A program made the translations under genes and the position numbers. 64,000 bases of DNA from Escherichia phage JLBYU50. The notes under the pieces are model-generated. The model was not told the origin of the DNA. It searched no databases and saw nothing but the letters and a program-made list of their open reading frames with translations. Shown in pieces: positions 5,235 to 24,337 of the stretch (position 1 is the first letter of the stretch; every line of letters begins with the position of its first letter). The DNA is taken from sequence record OK272470.1; one strand, 5' to 3'.

Positions 5235-7394
5235 ATGAAACAGGCTATTTTTACTGTAACTCGAAATACGAGAGTAAATGCCAGTTCATTCAGCTATAAG
5301 ACCGTCGATGGAACGGCGGTCGCTGGTAGAGATTATGTAGCTAAACAGGGAACAGTAACGTTCCCTTCTGATGCAGATTCTGCTACTGTAGTGGTTGATG
5401 TATATGAACGTCCGGCAAACTCTTTAGATCTTTATTTTACTCTTGAGATTACTAGCATAAGTCAAAATAACATGATGATCAACGAAGAAATTCGTTGTGT
5501 TATTACGACTGATCAATCGAATACAACCCCACTAACTTGGCCTGTTGTGAAGTCTAGAATGTTTGATCCTAAGTTTTGGACAATAGATTCTCAAGCAACA
5601 GAGAGCTGTTCTATTATCTCTAATGGTGATTCTTTCACAGCAAGAATGGTTAATAGGACAGTGGCTGGTCTTGCTGGGATTATTTGGTCAACTTACGATA
5701 AATATGATCACAAAGGATTAGGCTACCAAGAACATTCTGACTTAAGTAAAGAGAAACTTTGGTTTAAAATGGAACTTAGTCAAGGTGTTCCTGGATTAAA
5801 AGAAGAAAAATTATTGCCATCCTTAACAGTGACACTGAAGGATGAAACAGTTCATTATGTATCTCTAAACTTTTATGCAGAAGAAGTTTCAGAGGACGGT
5901 AAAACAGCAACAATAAAATTAGATTTCTCAAATTTAAAATCTGGGCCAGAAAATGATATTGTTGTTGACACTACACAGATAGATAATATGTTCTTCTCCT
6001 TGATCTCCACAAGGTATCAAGAAATTGAAGATGTTATACCTGTAGACAATATGGATCTTTCCTTTAAGTTTACCATACTAGAGCCTGATACTGGTTACAG
6101 TATGATGAATATGGGTAATTTAAATGTTCCGGCGCACACCATAAGAATGTGTACATCTTATGATGATATGTATAACCTAACCCCAGAGCGAGTTATTTCT
6201 AACACCTATAGATTAGGTTATAGAGATATGATTAACCATTATAATGGTATGTCACACTATTATCAATTTAGTTGGGATGCTGGATCTAATAAATGGGCTT
6301 TGAACAGAACAGAATATTTAAACCCAGCAACAGAAGCCTGGTTTGACAATTTCCACGCTAATGCAAAAGCTATGGGCTACACAGTAATGAACTCCTTAAG
6401 TTTTGAACTTATGAGTACAGTGTGTCCTGTAGAATGGGTACAACATGCTTGGAATGATGATCTTGCTGCTACAGGTTATGAGCCACCAAGTTATGTTTTA
6501 TCTCCTTCAATTGATGAAGGGATGAATTATTTACAAGGTGTAATAAATAAGATAGCTTCTATATCCGCTGCCAATGATCTTCCTGTTATTATTCAGGTTG
6601 GTGAACCGTGGTGGTGGTATAACACAGCTACCAATCTACCGTGTATTTATGATTATACAACCAAAGTTGCATTTAATAATGAAACTGGATTATATGCACA
6701 AGATGTTGGTACAGTTAAGAATTATAAAACTGGTACACCATATGATGAATATTATGCATTCCTATCTAAAACATTAGGACTACGTGTTGCTAAGTTTGCA
6801 ACGGATACTAGATTAGCATATCCTGGAGCGAAAGTTACATTGTTACCATTTGTGCCATCCATTTTGGGTAATGGTATGATGGAGTTTGTTAACTTCCCTA
6901 AAGATTATTATATCCCAGAAAACTTTGACTTTTATTGTTCAGAATGTTATGACTGGTTGTTGGAAGGCAAGATGGAAAGATCTTTCGACGCTATCACAAT
7001 ACCTAATGAGCAACTAGGTTTTAGTTACGATAAGATACATTATCTTGCAGGGTTTGTTCCAGATGCAACTCTAGCACCATTATATGGCTTTGATCCTGAA
7101 TCAAACTATAGAACATATTTGTGGAAAATGATTATAGGCAATATTGTATTGAATGACCAGAAGTTTGTTGGTTTATATCAATACATATGGGCTTACCCAC
7201 AAATAATGCATGATTCAATAACTGTTCTTAATTCAAAATCCCAAGTGTTTTATATGGGTAATGTGCCTTTGAATTGCTACTTGCAAGATATCACTCTTAA
7301 ACAGGTAAATGTTGAGATTGCCACTATAAGTGGAATTACATTAGCCACTAAATCTGGAGAAGATTTAGTAACAACACAAAAATTTTATATATAG
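5235..7394 (+). CDS. virion protein with N-terminal Calx-beta-like domain
   Basis: Motif TVDGTAVAGRDYVAKQGTVTFPSDADSATV resembles Calx-beta; 719 aa. Confidence 0.5.
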   Translation: MKQAIFTVTRNTRVNASSFSYKTVDGTAVAGRDYVAKQGTVTFPSDADSATVVVDVYERPANSLDLYFTLEITSISQNNMMINEEIRCVITTDQSNTTPLTWPVVKSRMFDPKFWTIDSQATESCSIISNGDSFTARMVNRTVAGLAGIIWSTYDKYDHKGLGYQEHSDLSKEKLWFKMELSQGVPGLKEEKLLPSLTVTLKDETVHYVSLNFYAEEVSEDGKTATIKLDFSNLKSGPENDIVVDTTQIDNMFFSLISTRYQEIEDVIPVDNMDLSFKFTILEPDTGYSMMNMGNLNVPAHTIRMCTSYDDMYNLTPERVISNTYRLGYRDMINHYNGMSHYYQFSWDAGSNKWALNRTEYLNPATEAWFDNFHANAKAMGYTVMNSLSFELMSTVCPVEWVQHAWNDDLAATGYEPPSYVLSPSIDEGMNYLQGVINKIASISAANDLPVIIQVGEPWWWYNTATNLPCIYDYTTKVAFNNETGLYAQDVGTVKNYKTGTPYDEYYAFLSKTLGLRVAKFATDTRLAYPGAKVTLLPFVPSILGNGMMEFVNFPKDYYIPENFDFYCSECYDWLLEGKMERSFDAITIPNEQLGFSYDKIHYLAGFVPDATLAPLYGFDPESNYRTYLWKMIIGNIVLNDQKFVGLYQYIWAYPQIMHDSITVLNSKSQVFYMGNVPLNCYLQDITLKQVNVEIATISGITLATKSGEDLVTTQKFYI

Positions 7395-18896: not shown

Positions 18897-21716
18897 ATGT
18901 ATCCTATTCCTTTATTTATGTCAACAACATCAGCTTCAGTAGTAACAGCTACATCTATAACCACTTCCTCTATTGGTATTGCAATAGTTGGTAGTAAAAA
19001 GCAACTGACATACACAGTTTCACCGGAAGATGGTGCGTTATTTGATATAGCTTTTTCATCTTCAGATAATACCAAAATGGTTATAGATAATAGTGGTATG
19101 ATGGAGTTTGTTGCCGAAGGTGGTTTTGATGCAATAATGACAGCTAAAAATAATTTAGGTGCTGTCTTAACTGATCAATCTGGTGGTTATGCTTCAGAAT
19201 TAAGCGTGTACACTGAAAGTCTATCAGCTATGGATGTAGGCACTACTCAACAGTTGGTTGCTACAATCAGTCCAGAAGGTGCTAAAGATCTTCCAGACAT
19301 GGTAATTACGTACACCACAACAGATCCAGAAGTAGCTACTGTAAGCCCTACAGGATTAATAACTGCTCTTAAAGATGGTAATTGCCGTATAGGTTGTACT
19401 GCAACTTATCAAGGAACAGTGGTGGCCTCTGATAGTTCTTATTTAGGTGTTAATGCTATTCCTGTTATTTCTAATGTAACAGCCGTGGCAAACAGCTATG
19501 GAGACGTTCGTGTTGCTTGGGATGTAGCTGATCCGCTAGATGGTGATACTTATACTGTAGAAGTATTAGATTTAAGTAATAATAGTGTTCAGTGGACTAC
19601 AACAACCACGAATACTTACGCTTACTTTGATATCTCTGACTCTATTCCTCTTTATGGGTTTGCTCCAACATACCTTAAAATTAGCGTTAAGAGCACCAAA
19701 GCAGCAGCCGTTATCTTTAATAACTCAATAGCTACAGATGATTCGTTCATTAAAGAAGTTATTGTTTTTGCTGGACAAGATAACGTAAATGCACACTTTA
19801 CAGAACTATCTGGTGCAAATAAAGCAGCAATGAGTAGCACAACAGCCCGTAATGCATATGCTACGCAACGTGGTTTAGCAAATGCTGAAGTTCTTCCGTT
19901 AAATACAGCTTCTGGATCATCAGCAGCAGATAAATATGCTGACGATAAAGCTGGAACAGGTACACCAGACAACTACTGGTATGATCTGGATAACACAGCA
20001 GATGGGCCATGCTTAACTAACTTTATCACTAAAGTCACACCTTATGCAAGTAAGGTTAAAGCCATTATTTGGGGACAAGGTGAAAATGATGCTGTATCAT
20101 CATCTTCAACTGTTGCAGGTAGATACAGTAACACTACACGTTACCATGATGCTACGATAGCTATCTTTGATAAGATGCGTACAATAGTTCCTGCTTCTCA
20201 AGCAAAAATTGTTTGGCAGATCCTGGGACGTTCTTATTTATATGGTGTAGAAGTTAATGGTGTGGATTGGCAGAAGTACAGAAATGTACAAAGAACCATC
20301 TCTACAGCACGTGATGATGTTATCATTGGTTCTTGGGTAGATGGTGCTGAACGTTACAGTGGTTATGTTTATGAAGAAGGTATTGATGGTCGTATCCATT
20401 ATATTTCTTCTGTATACCAAACAGCAGCTACAAAACTTGCTAAATCAGCAGCAGACGGTACAGACCTAACATCAACGTCACCTGTTTGGGTTGATATGGC
20501 TGTTCCAACTGGAGCAACAGCTACTTCCCAATCTAATCAAGATACAATTTTAGTATGGGATGCTCAAGGCTATAGTAAACACTACTTCCGTAATATTAAC
20601 GTCTTAACAGCATCTGTATTAACTGAACAAACGCTTAATACGAACAGCTATACGTTTACCTATGCAGATCAAGTAGAACAATATGGTTTTGCAGCAGGAA
20701 CTACTATATTTGATGTTGCATATTATGATGAAGCAAATGATGTGTTATCTCCTTTAGTACGTTTTAATGTTAACGTTACAGCAGGAACCGTAGAAGATAA
20801 ACCTGTAGTGATGGATTATGATTTAACACAAGAAACTCTTCCATCAGATGTTAAGGTTAATGGTGGGAACTCTTTTGCTCGTGCTTCTGGAGATACACTT
20901 GTAGCCACTAACACCTTGGTTGCTCCGTTGGAGTATGTTGGCACTACCCCTGTAGGTAGACGTGTAACAGCTAACACAGCTACACAAATTTTTGTCAACA
21001 ACGCCTTAACAAGCGCAAGCCCGTGGGTAAAGACCAACTTAACTGTTTCAACTTCATCTGATAAATCTCCGGCTGGAACTACTGCCAATGTATTCAAATT
21101 AACTCCGACTACAACATCTGGTAGTCATATCTTAACTGCAACATATACTAACGCGTACAACATATATGCCGGACGTAACTGGTCTGCCTCTGTTTTCTTG
21201 AAAGCGAACGGGATTACTAAGGCCAAACTAAGATTAAAAGCAGGAACTGAAGTTAATGAGGGTACTTTTGATTTAGCAGCAGGTACATTTACAGGAAGTG
21301 AAGCTAATATTATATCTATGGGTAACGGTTGGTATCGTGCTATTCTGCATAAAACAGGGATAGCCAAACAGTCCTCCATAAGTTTTGAAATAATTGCCTT
21401 GGATGCAACTGGTGCGGAGATTTTCGCTGGGGATGGTACTAGTAACCTTGCAGTTTGGTTGCCACAGCTTGAAGGTGCTCCTACAGGAGAAACATCAAAA
21501 GCTGGAGCGCCTTATGTCTGCACATATCCTGGAAGTTTAGGAGGAGTATCCTTCACTATACCAAGGAACGGACATACTGGTGTGGATGTTTACTATTCCA
21601 ACGGGGACGTTGTTCGTGACGTATTCTCTGGTACGGCATCTACTTGGACAATAAACTACTCCAGCTTGTACGATTGGGGATCAGTCTTTATTACAGGTTT
21701 GAAATATTACGACTAA
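18897..21716 (+). CDS. tailspike with Ig-like domain and SGNH/SASA-type carbohydrate esterase-like domain
   Basis: Ig-like segment (ATVSPTGLITALKDGNCRIGCTATYQG); FAGQDN and WGQGEND motifs resembling sialate-O-acetylesterase GQSN / WxQGESD. Confidence 0.55.
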   Translation: MYPIPLFMSTTSASVVTATSITTSSIGIAIVGSKKQLTYTVSPEDGALFDIAFSSSDNTKMVIDNSGMMEFVAEGGFDAIMTAKNNLGAVLTDQSGGYASELSVYTESLSAMDVGTTQQLVATISPEGAKDLPDMVITYTTTDPEVATVSPTGLITALKDGNCRIGCTATYQGTVVASDSSYLGVNAIPVISNVTAVANSYGDVRVAWDVADPLDGDTYTVEVLDLSNNSVQWTTTTTNTYAYFDISDSIPLYGFAPTYLKISVKSTKAAAVIFNNSIATDDSFIKEVIVFAGQDNVNAHFTELSGANKAAMSSTTARNAYATQRGLANAEVLPLNTASGSSAADKYADDKAGTGTPDNYWYDLDNTADGPCLTNFITKVTPYASKVKAIIWGQGENDAVSSSSTVAGRYSNTTRYHDATIAIFDKMRTIVPASQAKIVWQILGRSYLYGVEVNGVDWQKYRNVQRTISTARDDVIIGSWVDGAERYSGYVYEEGIDGRIHYISSVYQTAATKLAKSAADGTDLTSTSPVWVDMAVPTGATATSQSNQDTILVWDAQGYSKHYFRNINVLTASVLTEQTLNTNSYTFTYADQVEQYGFAAGTTIFDVAYYDEANDVLSPLVRFNVNVTAGTVEDKPVVMDYDLTQETLPSDVKVNGGNSFARASGDTLVATNTLVAPLEYVGTTPVGRRVTANTATQIFVNNALTSASPWVKTNLTVSTSSDKSPAGTTANVFKLTPTTTSGSHILTATYTNAYNIYAGRNWSASVFLKANGITKAKLRLKAGTEVNEGTFDLAAGTFTGSEANIISMGNGWYRAILHKTGIAKQSSISFEIIALDATGAEIFAGDGTSNLAVWLPQLEGAPTGETSKAGAPYVCTYPGSLGGVSFTIPRNGHTGVDVYYSNGDVVRDVFSGTASTWTINYSSLYDWGSVFITGLKYYD

Positions 21717-21751: not shown

Positions 21752-22183
21752 TTAATCAGTGAAAATTACGCTTACATCTTCTTTAGAAAAGAGTTTATGA
21801 TCTTCACCTTTTGTCTCAAGAGTTTCATACAGGTTAAGAAGTTCTGAAACATCTTTCTCTACCAGTTTCTTCAATGTTGCAATTTTCTGTTTGCGATTCT
21901 TAATACGTTCAGCTACAACCTTACGTTGGTATCCAGCAGTACGATAACCTGAGAAAGTTACACCAGTGAGACTTGCAGTTACAGGATCGTAATGACGTTC
22001 AATCTGAAATTTATTAAAAGGTACAGCGTCATCACGAATAATCTTCCCGCCATTACTTACTTGACGAAGACCAGTAACTTGTTCTAGTCGTGCCATAGAA
22101 ATCTTTGGAGACAGACCAGAGTCTAGGTTCATACCATTGTTAATCAGTGCTTTCAGGGTGATTTTGCTGTTCAGTGTACTCAT
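21752..22183 (-). CDS. hypothetical protein
   Basis: RBS ggagga before ATG at 22183; 5' end overlaps 3' end of methyltransferase gene by 44 nt. Confidence 0.5.
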   Translation of the reverse strand: MSTLNSKITLKALINNGMNLDSGLSPKISMARLEQVTGLRQVSNGGKIIRDDAVPFNKFQIERHYDPVTASLTGVTFSGYRTAGYQRKVVAERIKNRKQKIATLKKLVEKDVSELLNLYETLETKGEDHKLFSKEDVSVIFTD

Positions 22184-22871
22184 TTAGTCGTTCCTCCGCT
22201 TGCTTAAAAATATTTACATCGGCTTCACAGCCTAAGTATTCTCTACCTGTTAAAAGTGCCGCAACTTGTGTTGTTGCACTTCCAGAGAAGAAGTCTAAGA
22301 CTACATCTCCTTCGTTGGTGTGTATATTAATAAGGTCACAAAACAAAGTCAAGTGTTTTTGTGTTGGATGAAAACGATCTGCTCCTTGATAGATAGGATA
22401 CTCAAACACACCCTTATGGTAGGAAGCATTGAAGGTTGGCTTAGAACCTTTAACACAAACAATAGCCATTTCTTTAGCGTTACTAAGGTAGTTAACACCA
22501 CTGTTGATGGGTACAGGGTTTGTTTTAATCCATTCAATAGTACGGAACATACGAAAACCAAGCGGTTCAAGGATTTCACGTAGCTCCTGGATCTTCCAGA
22601 TATCATACCAAACTATGCAAGTACCACCTTTTCTAAGCACCCTGTAGGCTTCTTTGAATACTTCTTTAAAGTAAGGAATATCTACAACATCCCAATCACC
22701 AAAGTTGTAAGATACACGGAATCTATCCGTATCTTTTCCAGTAGGCTCTCCAGATTGAAAATTTGTGTCACGAGAAATAGCATATGGTGGGTCAGTAAGA
22801 ATCAAATCTACACTATTGCTTTCGAGGGTTTGCAGGTAGTTTAATGCGGTGTTGTTTACAAATTCGCTCAT
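22140..22871 (-). CDS. DNA N6-adenine methyltransferase (beta-class, orphan)
   Basis: N-terminal DPPY catalytic motif and later VLDFFSGSATT SAM-binding motif; no adjacent restriction endonuclease. Confidence 0.75.
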   Translation of the reverse strand: MSEFVNNTALNYLQTLESNSVDLILTDPPYAISRDTNFQSGEPTGKDTDRFRVSYNFGDWDVVDIPYFKEVFKEAYRVLRKGGTCIVWYDIWKIQELREILEPLGFRMFRTIEWIKTNPVPINSGVNYLSNAKEMAIVCVKGSKPTFNASYHKGVFEYPIYQGADRFHPTQKHLTLFCDLINIHTNEGDVVLDFFSGSATTQVAALLTGREYLGCEADVNIFKQAEERLNEYTEQQNHPESTD

Positions 22872-22884
22872 TATATCTCCTTCA

Positions 22885-22910
22885 AAGAAAAGGAGCCGTT
22901 AGGCTCCTTA
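22885..22910 (-). terminator. rho-independent terminator downstream of SSB-like gene
   Basis: ggagcc-taac-ggctcc hairpin followed on - strand by TTTTCTTTG. Confidence 0.6.
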
Positions 22911-22931
22911 TATTCACACAATATTTAACTA

Positions 22932-23879
22932 TTAGAAACAGTGCAGGAAGTTTCGACCATACTGCAAACCAATAGGAGCAAATGGGATATCATCATCGAA
23001 ATCTTGAACAACAGGTTCTGGTTCTTTCGGTGCTGGCTCTTTCTTCTCTACTTTTTTAGTTTCTTTCTTAACTTCTTGTACTGGGGTAGACATTCCACGG
23101 ATAGCAGCAGCTACTTTATCAGACAAAGCAAGAACTTCACGAGCAGCTTCAATAATCTCTTCTGCCGTTACAGTTTTACCTGTATGATCACGACAAGCGT
23201 TAAGAATTGCGTGTCCAACTGAAGCACCAAGATCATAATCAGTCACATCAACGCCACGATCTTTAGCAATTTCTGCTTTCAGAGTAACAGTTGCAGATTG
23301 TACCACACCAGCCAAGTCGAAAGCATCACCTTTCACACCAGCACGTAGAAGCTCCAGAGCGCCGTTTACAGCGTGTCCTGTTTCAATCCCTACGGTATCA
23401 CGTTTTTTGTAGTTAGGCTTGCTACCTTCGTTATTAGATGGCTTATTTCCACCTTTTGAAGAAGATTGTGCTTGCTGAACACCTTCTGTTGAAAGAATAG
23501 TGATTTTACCTTTAGAGGAATTGTAGTATGTTTTGCCATTCCATTCAGAAGGTTTAACATCCATAGTTAGTTCTACACCTTTTTCGATAGTAACCCACTT
23601 GTCACCATCTTTAACTTGCAGGTTTTCATGTTCTGGATGCAGTTTAACTTCACCTAGGCTAACCCAAACACCTTTATCATCAGCACTAGCACCTTTCTCT
23701 TTAATAAGCAGAGATGCTTTGTGAGTTGATTCAATTTTCTTATCTGGCTGACCTGCAACCTTAATATAAGAGACTTTCATTTCATCAAACTTATCCAGTT
23801 TGACATATTCAACGATACCTTCAGCCCAGAATGCTTCTTTTTTAGTACGACGGTCGATTTCAGAATTAATTACTGGCAT
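22932..23879 (-). CDS. ssb: single-stranded DNA-binding protein-like
   Basis: Gly/Ser/Asn-rich linker then acidic DFDDDIPF motif (bacterial SSB C-terminal tip), here followed by 15 more residues. Confidence 0.6.
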   Translation of the reverse strand: MPVINSEIDRRTKKEAFWAEGIVEYVKLDKFDEMKVSYIKVAGQPDKKIESTHKASLLIKEKGASADDKGVWVSLGEVKLHPEHENLQVKDGDKWVTIEKGVELTMDVKPSEWNGKTYYNSSKGKITILSTEGVQQAQSSSKGGNKPSNNEGSKPNYKKRDTVGIETGHAVNGALELLRAGVKGDAFDLAGVVQSATVTLKAEIAKDRGVDVTDYDLGASVGHAILNACRDHTGKTVTAEEIIEAAREVLALSDKVAAAIRGMSTPVQEVKKETKKVEKKEPAPKEPEPVVQDFDDDIPFAPIGLQYGRNFLHCF

Positions 23880-24294: not shown

Positions 24295-24337
24295 TCAAGT
24301 CCTCATAATAACACATAATTATAATGTTTGTCAACAC

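What the first reader, a model, noticed from the sequence alone, without database searches (positions are those of the whole stretch)
22932..23879. SSB-like protein with an internal DDDIPF motif followed by 15 extra residues
Seen in sequence: the acidic tip DFDDDIPF, normally the extreme C-terminus of bacterial SSB and needed for partner binding, is followed by APIGLQYGRNFLHCF before the stop. Inference: either a genuine extension that masks or alters the tip, or a sequencing frameshift near 22977.
Basis: seen in the sequence. Interest (0 to 1): 0.4.

Follow-up and report, generated by a model that had tools for sequence, protein, structure and literature searches.

The report
Phage SSB with capped C-terminal tip
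The 15 extra residues after the DDDIPF tip are not an error: they are a conserved, portable C-terminal module found on hundreds of phage single-stranded-DNA-binding proteins from at least five unrelated families, and it should block the way bacterial SSB normally recruits its partners.

Summary
ORF 22932-23879 (-) encodes a 315-aa protein ending ...DFDDDIPF(300)-APIGLQYGRNFLHCF(315)-stop. A sequencing frameshift is excluded. The same end occurs in about 55 independently sequenced phi92-like phages. The extension recurs, with sequence variation and saturated synonymous change, in distant relatives (rV5, PVP-SE1, nieznany, Tr1, BIS47). It also recurs on unrelated bodies: classical PF00436 SSBs of Vibrio, Proteus and lambdoid phages, Gp2.5-like proteins, phrog_2544 and phrog_24909. 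The motif is AP[IV]GL-x-[YFH]-[PG]-x2-3-hydrophobic-[HYN]-[CAVSM]-[ILVMF]-stop. It is 14 or 15 residues long in 146 of 148 cases and always follows the acidic IPF tip directly. In one-genome-per-species data it is confined to prophages of Enterobacterales, Vibrionales, Alteromonadales and Aeromonadales. It is evolutionarily labile (at least 15 state changes among 99 family members). Published work shows that one extra Gly after the terminal Phe abolishes chi binding. So the cap most likely prevents canonical carboxylate-dependent docking and supplies a new docking peptide. The partner is unknown and probably host-encoded. I found no description in the searchable literature.

The parts
22932..23879 (-). 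Gene for the 315-aa SSB-like protein (PHROG 4477), stop codon included
   Evidence: 98-100% identical proteins in about 54 phage records
23490..23879 (-). N-terminal beta domain, residues 1-130: OB fold
23100..23393 (-). Four-helix bundle, residues 163-260, conserved in the family
   Evidence: AF2 model; near-invariant G164, G168, H169, T197, G218, G222, A228
23004..23099 (-). Disordered Lys/Glu/Pro-rich linker, residues 261-292
   Evidence: pLDDT about 50-68; hypervariable among homologues
22980..23003 (-). Acidic tip DFDDDIPF, residues 293-300, identical to the E. coli SSB-Ct but internal here
   Evidence: P299 and F300 invariant in 43 homologues
22935..22979 (-). 15-residue cap APIGLQYGRNFLHCF, residues 301-315: the conserved post-tip extension
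   Evidence: predicted disordered (pLDDT about 48-53)
22932..22934 (-). Stop codon TAA (in-frame TAG follows at 22929-22931)
22880..22909 (-). Intrinsic-terminator-like hairpin AAGGAGCC-TAAC-GGCTCCTT plus T tract, ending the polA-to-ssb transcription unit
   Evidence: an equivalent hairpin follows ssb in phAPEC8 and the P0006 contig
22925..22960 (-). +1-frame mini-ORF MVETSCTVSNS* starting at the T-ATG-G of the Tyr-Gly codons. The same start is used by the downstream HNH endonuclease gene in Tr1, nieznany and rV5; no HNH gene is present here
   Evidence: It cannot be told apart from a by-product of the conserved extension sequence

Best explanation
The gene encodes the phage's OB-fold ssDNA-binding protein. 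It carries a genuine, selected, portable C-terminal module: the canonical acidic SSB tip (DFDDDIPF) immediately capped by a conserved 14-15-residue peptide (AP[IV]GL-x-Y-[GP]-...-hydrophobic-[HYN]-[CA]-hydrophobic-COOH). SHOWN: the cap is real, under protein-level constraint, of fixed length, always fused to the tip, carried by at least five unrelated ssDNA-binding protein families, restricted to phages and prophages of one gammaproteobacterial clade, and frequently gained, lost or swapped. INFERRED: the cap removes the free alpha-carboxylate of the terminal Phe, which host SSB-interacting proteins (chi, DnaG, ExoI, RecO and others) use for docking. The capped tail therefore cannot engage those pockets in the canonical way, which insulates phage ssDNA-SSB complexes from the host SSB interactome. 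The conserved tip-plus-cap composite instead acts as one longer linear motif with its own hydrophobic C-terminus, docking a different partner. That partner is most likely host-encoded, because the phages carrying the motif share no common replication or recombination gene. Rapid switching between capped and uncapped states suggests an accessory function, possibly linked to an arms race, and not an essential one.
For: Not an artefact: 55 phage records at >=95% nt identity over the whole region; 54 records at >=95% protein identity, and all sampled rows align over residues 1-315. Conserved in divergent homologues: 21 of 99 PHROG 4477 relatives down to about 30% identity carry DDDIPF plus the cap, the rest end at DDDIPF. 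Portable: a classical PF00436 SSB of Vibrio phage BT-1011 ends DDDIPFAPIGLQYGRNLLHVI; Gp2.5-like (phrog_112), phrog_2544 and phrog_24909 bodies also carry it. Constraint: length 14 or 15 in 146/148; 71 distinct peptides; pS 0.73-0.90 against pN/pS 0.33-0.57. Obligate composite: all 139 C-terminal cap motifs in 2.95 Mb follow an acidic IPF tip, none stands alone. Host range: 28 genuine tails among 185,579 species genomes, and 27 of them are in Enterobacterales, Vibrionales, Alteromonadales or Aeromonadales. No universal neighbouring gene. Capping blocks docking: SSB+Gly loses measurable chi binding and is impaired in vivo (PMC3045619); DnaG R452 salt-bridges the terminal carboxylate and similar pockets exist in ExoI, RecO and chi (PMC5872125). 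The cap is predicted disordered and does not dock on the protein's own domains.
Against: No binding partner was identified, and no experiment or complex prediction supports any specific one. The tip stays as conserved in capped proteins as in uncapped ones. This is unexpected if the tip is simply disabled; it could mean the cap is removed post-translationally or that the tip works internally. Loss of the cap is frequent and evidently tolerated, so its contribution may be small or conditional. The collection scans required A-P-[IVM]-G-[LF], so invariance at cap positions 1-5 is partly by construction, and the host range could be wider for divergent caps. The SSB function of PHROG 4477 itself rests on a modest fold match plus the tail.
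Confidence: 0.5

Rival explanations
1. Sequencing or assembly frameshift: the true gene ends at DDDIPF and the 15 residues are an artefact.
For: Relatives ending at DDDIPF differ from the window by a 1-nt indel at the Phe codon. PHROG 4477's profile ends at residue 300.
Against: The same sequence occurs in about 55 independent genomes. The extension peptide is homologous to caps on unrelated SSBs (90% identity to a Vibrio phage SSB tail), with codon-level divergence and amino-acid conservation. A random frameshift cannot produce a conserved motif.
Confidence: 0.01
2. Pro-peptide or regulated maturation: the cap is cleaved after Phe300 by a host or phage protease, exposing a canonical DDDIPF-COOH tip only at the right time or place. 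Closely related alternative: the hydrophobic C-terminus is a degron that tunes the level of phage SSB.
For: The tip is fully conserved beneath the cap, as expected if it is used after processing. The cap has a fixed length and a conserved hydrophobic C-terminus [HYN]-[CAVSM]-[ILVMF], reminiscent of C-terminal recognition tags. The cap is disordered and accessible.
Against: No protease gene co-occurs with it. The C-terminus does not match the ssrA-type L-A-A ClpX signal. No known protease cleaves F|AP. A degron alone would not need the invariant G-L-x-Y core or obligatory fusion to the tip.
Confidence: 0.17
3. Pure mask: the only role of the extra residues is to block the terminal carboxylate and stop host nucleases and helicases from being recruited to phage ssDNA. 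The cap has no partner of its own.
For: One extra residue is enough to abolish chi binding (PMC3045619).
Against: A mask needs no particular sequence or length, yet the cap has a conserved core, fixed length and pN/pS well below 1 across unrelated proteins. Deleting or mutating the tip would be simpler, yet the tip is retained.
Confidence: 0.12
4. Docking site for a phage-encoded partner (recombinase, annealase or replisome protein), as with HK620 SSB and Sak4 or T7 gp2.5 and its polymerase/helicase.
For: Phage SSB tails do recruit phage partners (PMC5928155). Capped SSBs in temperate phages sit next to annealases and exonucleases (Rad52-like in mEp235; Erf-like and RdgC-like clusters).
Against: The neighbouring recombinases belong to several unrelated families and none is universal. 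Large virulent myoviruses with a PolA-type replisome carry the same cap as small temperate phages. Within single genera (Phapecoctavirus, Mydovirus) the state flips.
Confidence: 0.15
5. By-product of gene overlap: the extra codons exist to house the start codon and ribosome site of the downstream HNH homing endonuclease gene.
For: In rV5, nieznany, Tr1 and the P0004 contig the HNH gene starts inside the cap at T-ATG-G (Tyr-Gly) in the +1 frame.
Against: The window, BIS47, and the Vibrio, Proteus and lambdoid phage SSBs have the cap but no HNH gene. The same HNH family also sits after uncapped ssb genes (K54_rec6, Ro1, phiWec188).
Confidence: 0.03

Closest known systems
E. coli SSB C-terminal tip (SSB-Ct, ...DFDDDIPF-COOH), the hub that recruits chi, PriA, RecQ, ExoI, RecO, DnaG, RecG, RadD and others
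   Same: Identical octapeptide DFDDDIPF preceded by a disordered linker on an OB-fold ssDNA-binding protein.
   Different: In the known system the Phe is the last residue and its free carboxylate is part of the recognition (PMC5872125, PMC3045619). Here 15 conserved residues follow it, so the defining terminal position is not met.
Engineered SSB+Gly (one residue added after F177; Naue et al., PMC3045619)
   Same: An SSB whose tip is no longer C-terminal.
   Different: That is an artificial one-residue extension that simply destroys chi binding and impairs growth. The phage cap is natural, 14-15 residues long, conserved, and present on hundreds of proteins, which implies a function of its own.
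Phage SSB tails that recruit phage partners: T7 gp2.5 acidic tail with terminal Phe; HK620 SSB NDYPPF tail recruiting Sak4 (PMC5928155)
   Same: Short C-terminal linear motifs on phage ssDNA-binding proteins that mediate partner recruitment. A Gp2.5-like body is one carrier of the capped tail.
   Different: Those tails end at the aromatic residue. None has a conserved peptide after it.
PHROG 4477 (rV5 / PVP-SE1 / phAPEC8 / phi92 'hypothetical protein', sometimes annotated SSB)
   Same: The window protein is a full-length member (E=2.5e-101).
   Different: Most members, and the family profile, end at DDDIPF. The window belongs to the minority (about 21%) that carry the cap.

Membership tests
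Bacterial-type SSB (Pfam PF00436) | Sequence match to the SSB OB-domain model | tested here: not met
   No Pfam family at E<=0.1. By contrast, the Vibrio phage BT-1011 protein with the same tail matches PF00436 at 1.8e-40.
Bacterial-type SSB (Pfam PF00436) | OB fold resembling SSB | tested here: inconclusive
Bacterial-type SSB (Pfam PF00436) | Binds ssDNA; forms a homotetramer | not testable with these tools
   Needs biochemistry.
SSB-Ct interaction motif | Acidic-hydrophobic peptide D-D-D-I-P-F after a disordered linker | tested here: met
   Residues 293-300 are DFDDDIPF; the linker is disordered.
SSB-Ct interaction motif | Phe is the extreme C-terminal residue with a free alpha-carboxylate | tested here: not met
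   15 residues follow F300. A single added Gly abolishes chi binding (PMC3045619).
PHROG 4477 | Full-length profile match | tested here: met
   E=2.5e-101, 340 bits; the profile ends at residue 300.
Capped-tip SSB tail (operational class defined in this report) | Tip directly followed by AP[IV]GL-x-[YFH]... with the stop 14-15 residues after Phe and a C-terminus of hydrophobic-[HYN]-[CAVSM]-[ILVMF] | tested here: met
   APIGLQYGRNFLHCF fits every position of the 15-residue profile built from 41 distinct peptides.
Beta-clamp-binding motif | Q-L-[SD]-L-F or Q-L-x-L-x-[LF] with a conserved leading Gln | tested here: not met
   No register fits. The only Gln (cap position 6) is replaced by Pro or Met in most variants.
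ssrA-like ClpX C-terminal degron | C-terminal L-A-A-COOH or a close non-polar variant | tested here: not met
   The last three residues are [HYN]-[CAVSM]-[ILVMF] (for example HCF, YVI, NVI, HMI); never LAA.

The most novel reading that the evidence does not exclude
The tip-plus-cap composite is a previously unrecognised SSB interaction code. It would be a dedicated linear motif by which phages of the Enterobacterales-Vibrionales-Alteromonadales clade withdraw their ssDNA-SSB complexes from the host's carboxylate-dependent SSB interactome and couple them to one specific, clade-restricted host factor (or evade or decoy a defence that monitors SSB tips). Rapid capped/uncapped switching would reflect an arms race.
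Probability: 0.35. Interest if true: 0.8.

Novelty: new variant of a known kind. Interest (0 to 1): 0.62.

Why it matters
The rule that the SSB tip must be the free C-terminus underlies two decades of work on how SSB organises replication, repair and recombination, and it is the basis of inhibitor screens. A natural, conserved cap on that tip shows that phages have a systematic way of rewriting this interface: it occurs on hundreds of phage proteins from at least five ssDNA-binding families, and it includes lambdoid and therapeutic-type E. coli phages. The question is directly testable with two synthetic peptides and a one-codon phage mutant. The answer could reveal a new host target, a new SSB-partner recognition mode, or a determinant of sensitivity to SSB-sensing defence systems. 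It also matters for recombineering and for the design of SSB-annealase pairs. For annotation, it shows that these proteins are not frameshifted.

Tried and rejected
(1) Literature string searches for PIGLQY, IPFAPIG and DIPFAP, and concept searches, found nothing on the cap. The HK620 Sak4/SSB, DARNA and Retron-Eco8 papers were read and do not deal with it. (2) Neighbourhood enrichment used 150 capped against 120 uncapped viral SSB loci. It found no universal neighbour. The two sets also differ in origin (isolate prophages versus metagenomes), so enrichments such as the RdgC-like cluster (14 vs 0) or a 203-aa downstream ORF (18 vs 0) are confounded and were not pursued. (3) The exhaustive representative search with the 32-aa tail gave only 4 hits at E<=1e-3; a short query is too insensitive. 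(4) A PDB sequence search with the composite tail matched only the canonical tip. (5) The hypothesis that the HNH gene overlap causes the extension was rejected. (6) Whole-genome comparison of within-genus pairs with opposite state (nieznany/phAPEC8, BIS47/Ro1) was started and abandoned. With only 64 kb of the phi92-like genome available, any co-varying gene would be weak evidence. (7) Beta-clamp motif and ssrA-type degron readings did not fit the profile. (8) Complex prediction (peptide plus candidate partner) is not possible with the tools, which accept single natural chains only.

Full report
OBSERVATION. The ORF at 22932-23879 on the minus strand encodes 315 residues and ends ...PVVQDFDDDIPF-APIGLQYGRNFLHCF, then TAA TAG. 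The tip DFDDDIPF occupies residues 293-300 (window 22980-23003) and the extra 15 residues occupy 22935-22979.

NOT A SEQUENCING ERROR. A tblastn search finds 54 phage records with >=95% identical proteins, and every sampled row aligns through residue 315. Among 100 homologues from the 5.8-billion-protein collection, 22 carry DDDIPF followed by a recognisably homologous extension. Examples are APIGLQYGMNLLHAMP, APVGLQYARHAISALYA, APIGLPYGRNFIHCI, SPLGLQYPNHSMYALYA and ASLGLQYASHAIHAIF. The other 78 end at DDDIPF. rV5 gp209 ends DFCDDIPFAPVGLQYGKSRIHAL.

A PORTABLE MODULE. Residues 294-314 alone hit the SSBs of small Vibrio phages. The vB_VpP_BT-1011 protein is a classical SSB (PF00436, E=1.8e-40) ending ...SFDDDIPFAPIGLQYGRNLLHVI. 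I scanned IMG/VR for the back-translated pattern D-x-P-F-A-P-[IVM]-G-[LF]. The bodies carrying the tail include classical SSB (phrog_44/PF00436), PHROG 4477, phrog_2544 (351 aa), Gp2.5-like SSB/annealase (phrog_112), phrog_24909 and a divergent phrog_44 form. Among cultured phages, 154 records cover at least 80% of a 28-residue prophage-type composite tail. They include lambdoid E. coli phage mEp235, where ssb lies between a Rad52-like annealase and exo/abc2, along with Proteus, Yersinia, Hafnia, Vibrio and Klebsiella phages, PVP-SE1 and phiEB49. P1 Ssb and many others stop at the tip.

ANATOMY AND SELECTION. Of 148 caps, 109 are 15 residues long and 37 are 14, and there are 71 distinct peptides. 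The 15-residue profile is A-P-[IV]-G-L-[PQM]-[YFH]-[PG]-R-H-[ALF]-[IL]-[HYN]-[VMCA]-[ILV]. Positions 1-5 were imposed by the search pattern. In the body-homology set, which has no such bias, G-L-x-Y is still nearly invariant. Synonymous sites are saturated (pS 0.73-0.90) while pN/pS is 0.33-0.57, also for positions 6 to the end alone. The constraint is therefore on the peptide and not on a DNA element. In 2.95 Mb of phage and prophage DNA (32,439 reading-frame segments), all 139 C-terminal occurrences of the cap motif directly follow an acidic IPF tip, and none occurs alone. Tip and cap behave as one composite.

DISTRIBUTION. In one genome per species (185,579 species) the pattern gives 28 genuine tails. 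Twenty-seven are in Enterobacterales (Proteus x7, Providencia, Moellerella, Trabulsiella, Tatumella, Atlantibacter, Pantoea, Apirhabdus), Vibrionales, Alteromonadales (Pseudoalteromonas, Glaciecola, Paraglaciecola, Colwellia, Idiomarina, Rheinheimera) and Aeromonadales (Oceanisphaera). The single exception is a MAG with a Pseudoalteromonas-type tail, probably mis-binned. The remaining 78 matches are internal chance hits in unrelated proteins. Capped genes lie in prophage early or recombination regions beside integrases, cI-like repressors and varied annealases. No neighbour is universal.

EVOLUTIONARY DYNAMICS. On a neighbour-joining tree of the bodies of 99 PHROG 4477 homologues, the 21 capped members require at least 15 state changes. 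Opposite states occur within genera: nieznany (+) and phAPEC8 (-) in Phapecoctavirus, and BIS47 (+) and Ro1 (-) in Mydovirus. P0032/nieznany, whose body is only about 60% identical to the window protein, has exactly the window's cap, so tails are exchanged as cassettes. In phAPEC8 and a contig encoding an 80%-identical uncapped protein, the sequence after the stop (TTC TAA TCT TAT TGA TTT A...) matches the window's cap codons (TT- TGC TCC TAT TGG TTT G...) once a 1-nt offset at the Phe codon is allowed. The scores are 11/18 (shuffle p=0.0008) and 10/18 (p=0.009), and Seunavirus relatives show nothing. So at least one uncapped lineage arose from a capped one by a 1-nt insertion at window position about 22980. 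An HNH endonuclease gene directly follows ssb in many relatives. In capped ones it starts inside the cap (T-ATG-G of Tyr-Gly, +1 frame), and in uncapped ones just after the stop. It is absent from the window, BIS47 and the temperate phages, so it does not explain the cap.

MECHANISM. Established knowledge: SSB-interacting proteins bind the SSB-Ct through a hydrophobic pocket for the terminal Phe plus basic residues that contact its alpha-carboxylate and the aspartates (DnaG R452 and analogous pockets in ExoI, RecO and chi; PMC5872125). Adding a single Gly after F177 abolishes measurable chi binding and impairs complementation (PMC3045619). Inference: a 15-residue cap prevents canonical docking. 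The cap also has a conserved sequence, a fixed length and its own hydrophobic C-terminus, and it is never separated from the tip, so I infer that the composite is a longer docking motif for a different partner. The same cap serves virulent myoviruses with their own PolA-type replisome and small temperate phages with unrelated recombinases, and it is confined to one host clade. The partner is therefore more likely host-encoded than phage-encoded. None of this is shown: no partner was identified. The main rivals are proteolytic maturation or a degron (which would explain why the tip stays perfectly conserved), a pure mask, and a phage-encoded partner. They are listed with tests.

COMPARISON AND NOVELTY. 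The protein works like an SSB with an SSB-Ct-type tail, but it fails the defining 'free C-terminal Phe' feature and is not a PF00436 member. It is a full member of PHROG 4477. Neither string searches nor concept searches of 8 million full texts turned up any description of residues following the SSB tip in phage proteins. Subscription-only literature could not be searched. I rate it a new variant of a known kind: a natural 'capped-tip' SSB tail. Confidence that the cap is a real, selected, portable module is about 0.95. Confidence in the proposed mechanism as a whole is about 0.5.

Noticed in passing
window 22925-22960 (-); L003:4100-4723, L359:2444-2938, L360:2405-2899, L352:3944-4372: An HNH (CxxC...HH) endonuclease gene directly follows ssb in many rV5/phAPEC8-type relatives. 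In capped genes it starts inside the cap in the +1 frame (MVETSC..., MAKVES...). The window keeps only an 11-codon ORF with that start (MVETSCTVSNS*). This is either a remnant of a lost homing endonuclease or a by-product of the conserved cap sequence.
   Followed up: partly
window 21752-22871 (-): A DNA N6/N4-methyltransferase (PF01555, 1.9e-30) and a 143-aa ORF (phrog_20244) lie between the ssb terminator and the convergent 939-aa tail-fibre-like gene (18897-21716). In phAPEC8 and the P0006 contig, the convergent gene follows the terminator directly. The methylase cassette therefore looks like an insertion specific to phi92-like phages.
   Followed up: partly
one search hits H21-H24 (MG065639, MG065645, MG065656, MG065689): Four records named 'Campylobacter phage' (host C. 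jejuni) are 98.8% identical to this E. coli phi92-like region. They are probably mislabelled or contaminant genomes.
   Followed up: no
P0004 / L352:3870-3957; L355 and L357 (K54_rec6, Ro1); P0062, P0067: Some family members have tandemly duplicated tip elements: NDDVPF-DDDIPF before the cap in P0004, and AMDFDE-PPMDFDDQIPF or VDFDNEPPMDFDDDIPF in Mydovirus-type proteins. This suggests slippage or recombination within the tail-coding DNA.
   Followed up: no
L146:5719-5744 and 6267-6292 (Rheinheimera MAG DMYW01000047.1): Two capped-tail coding ends lie about 550 bp apart in one contig (…DDDIPFAPMGLECRRMLHCI and …APMGLECWRMLHCV). This indicates a tandem duplication or a truncated second ssb copy.
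   Followed up: no
neighbourhood clusters: An RdgC-like 381-aa protein (14 capped groups vs 0 controls) and a 203-aa ORF immediately downstream (18 vs 0) are enriched next to capped SSB genes in prophages. The comparison is confounded because the control set comes from a different source, and neither protein was annotated further.
   Followed up: no
window 24305-24334 (-): A near-consensus sigma-70-like promoter (TTGACA-18-TATTAT with an extended TG, 11/12 matches) lies between the nucleotidyltransferase gene and the 132-aa ORF upstream of ssb. It may drive ssb expression using the host RNA polymerase.
   Followed up: no
L216 (Parasphingorhabdus sp. MAG NZ_JBLWTY010000009.1): This is the only capped tail outside Gammaproteobacteria in the species-genome scan. 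The peptide (…QYPALLMCM) is identical to the Pseudoalteromonas type, so the contig is probably mis-binned.
   Followed up: no
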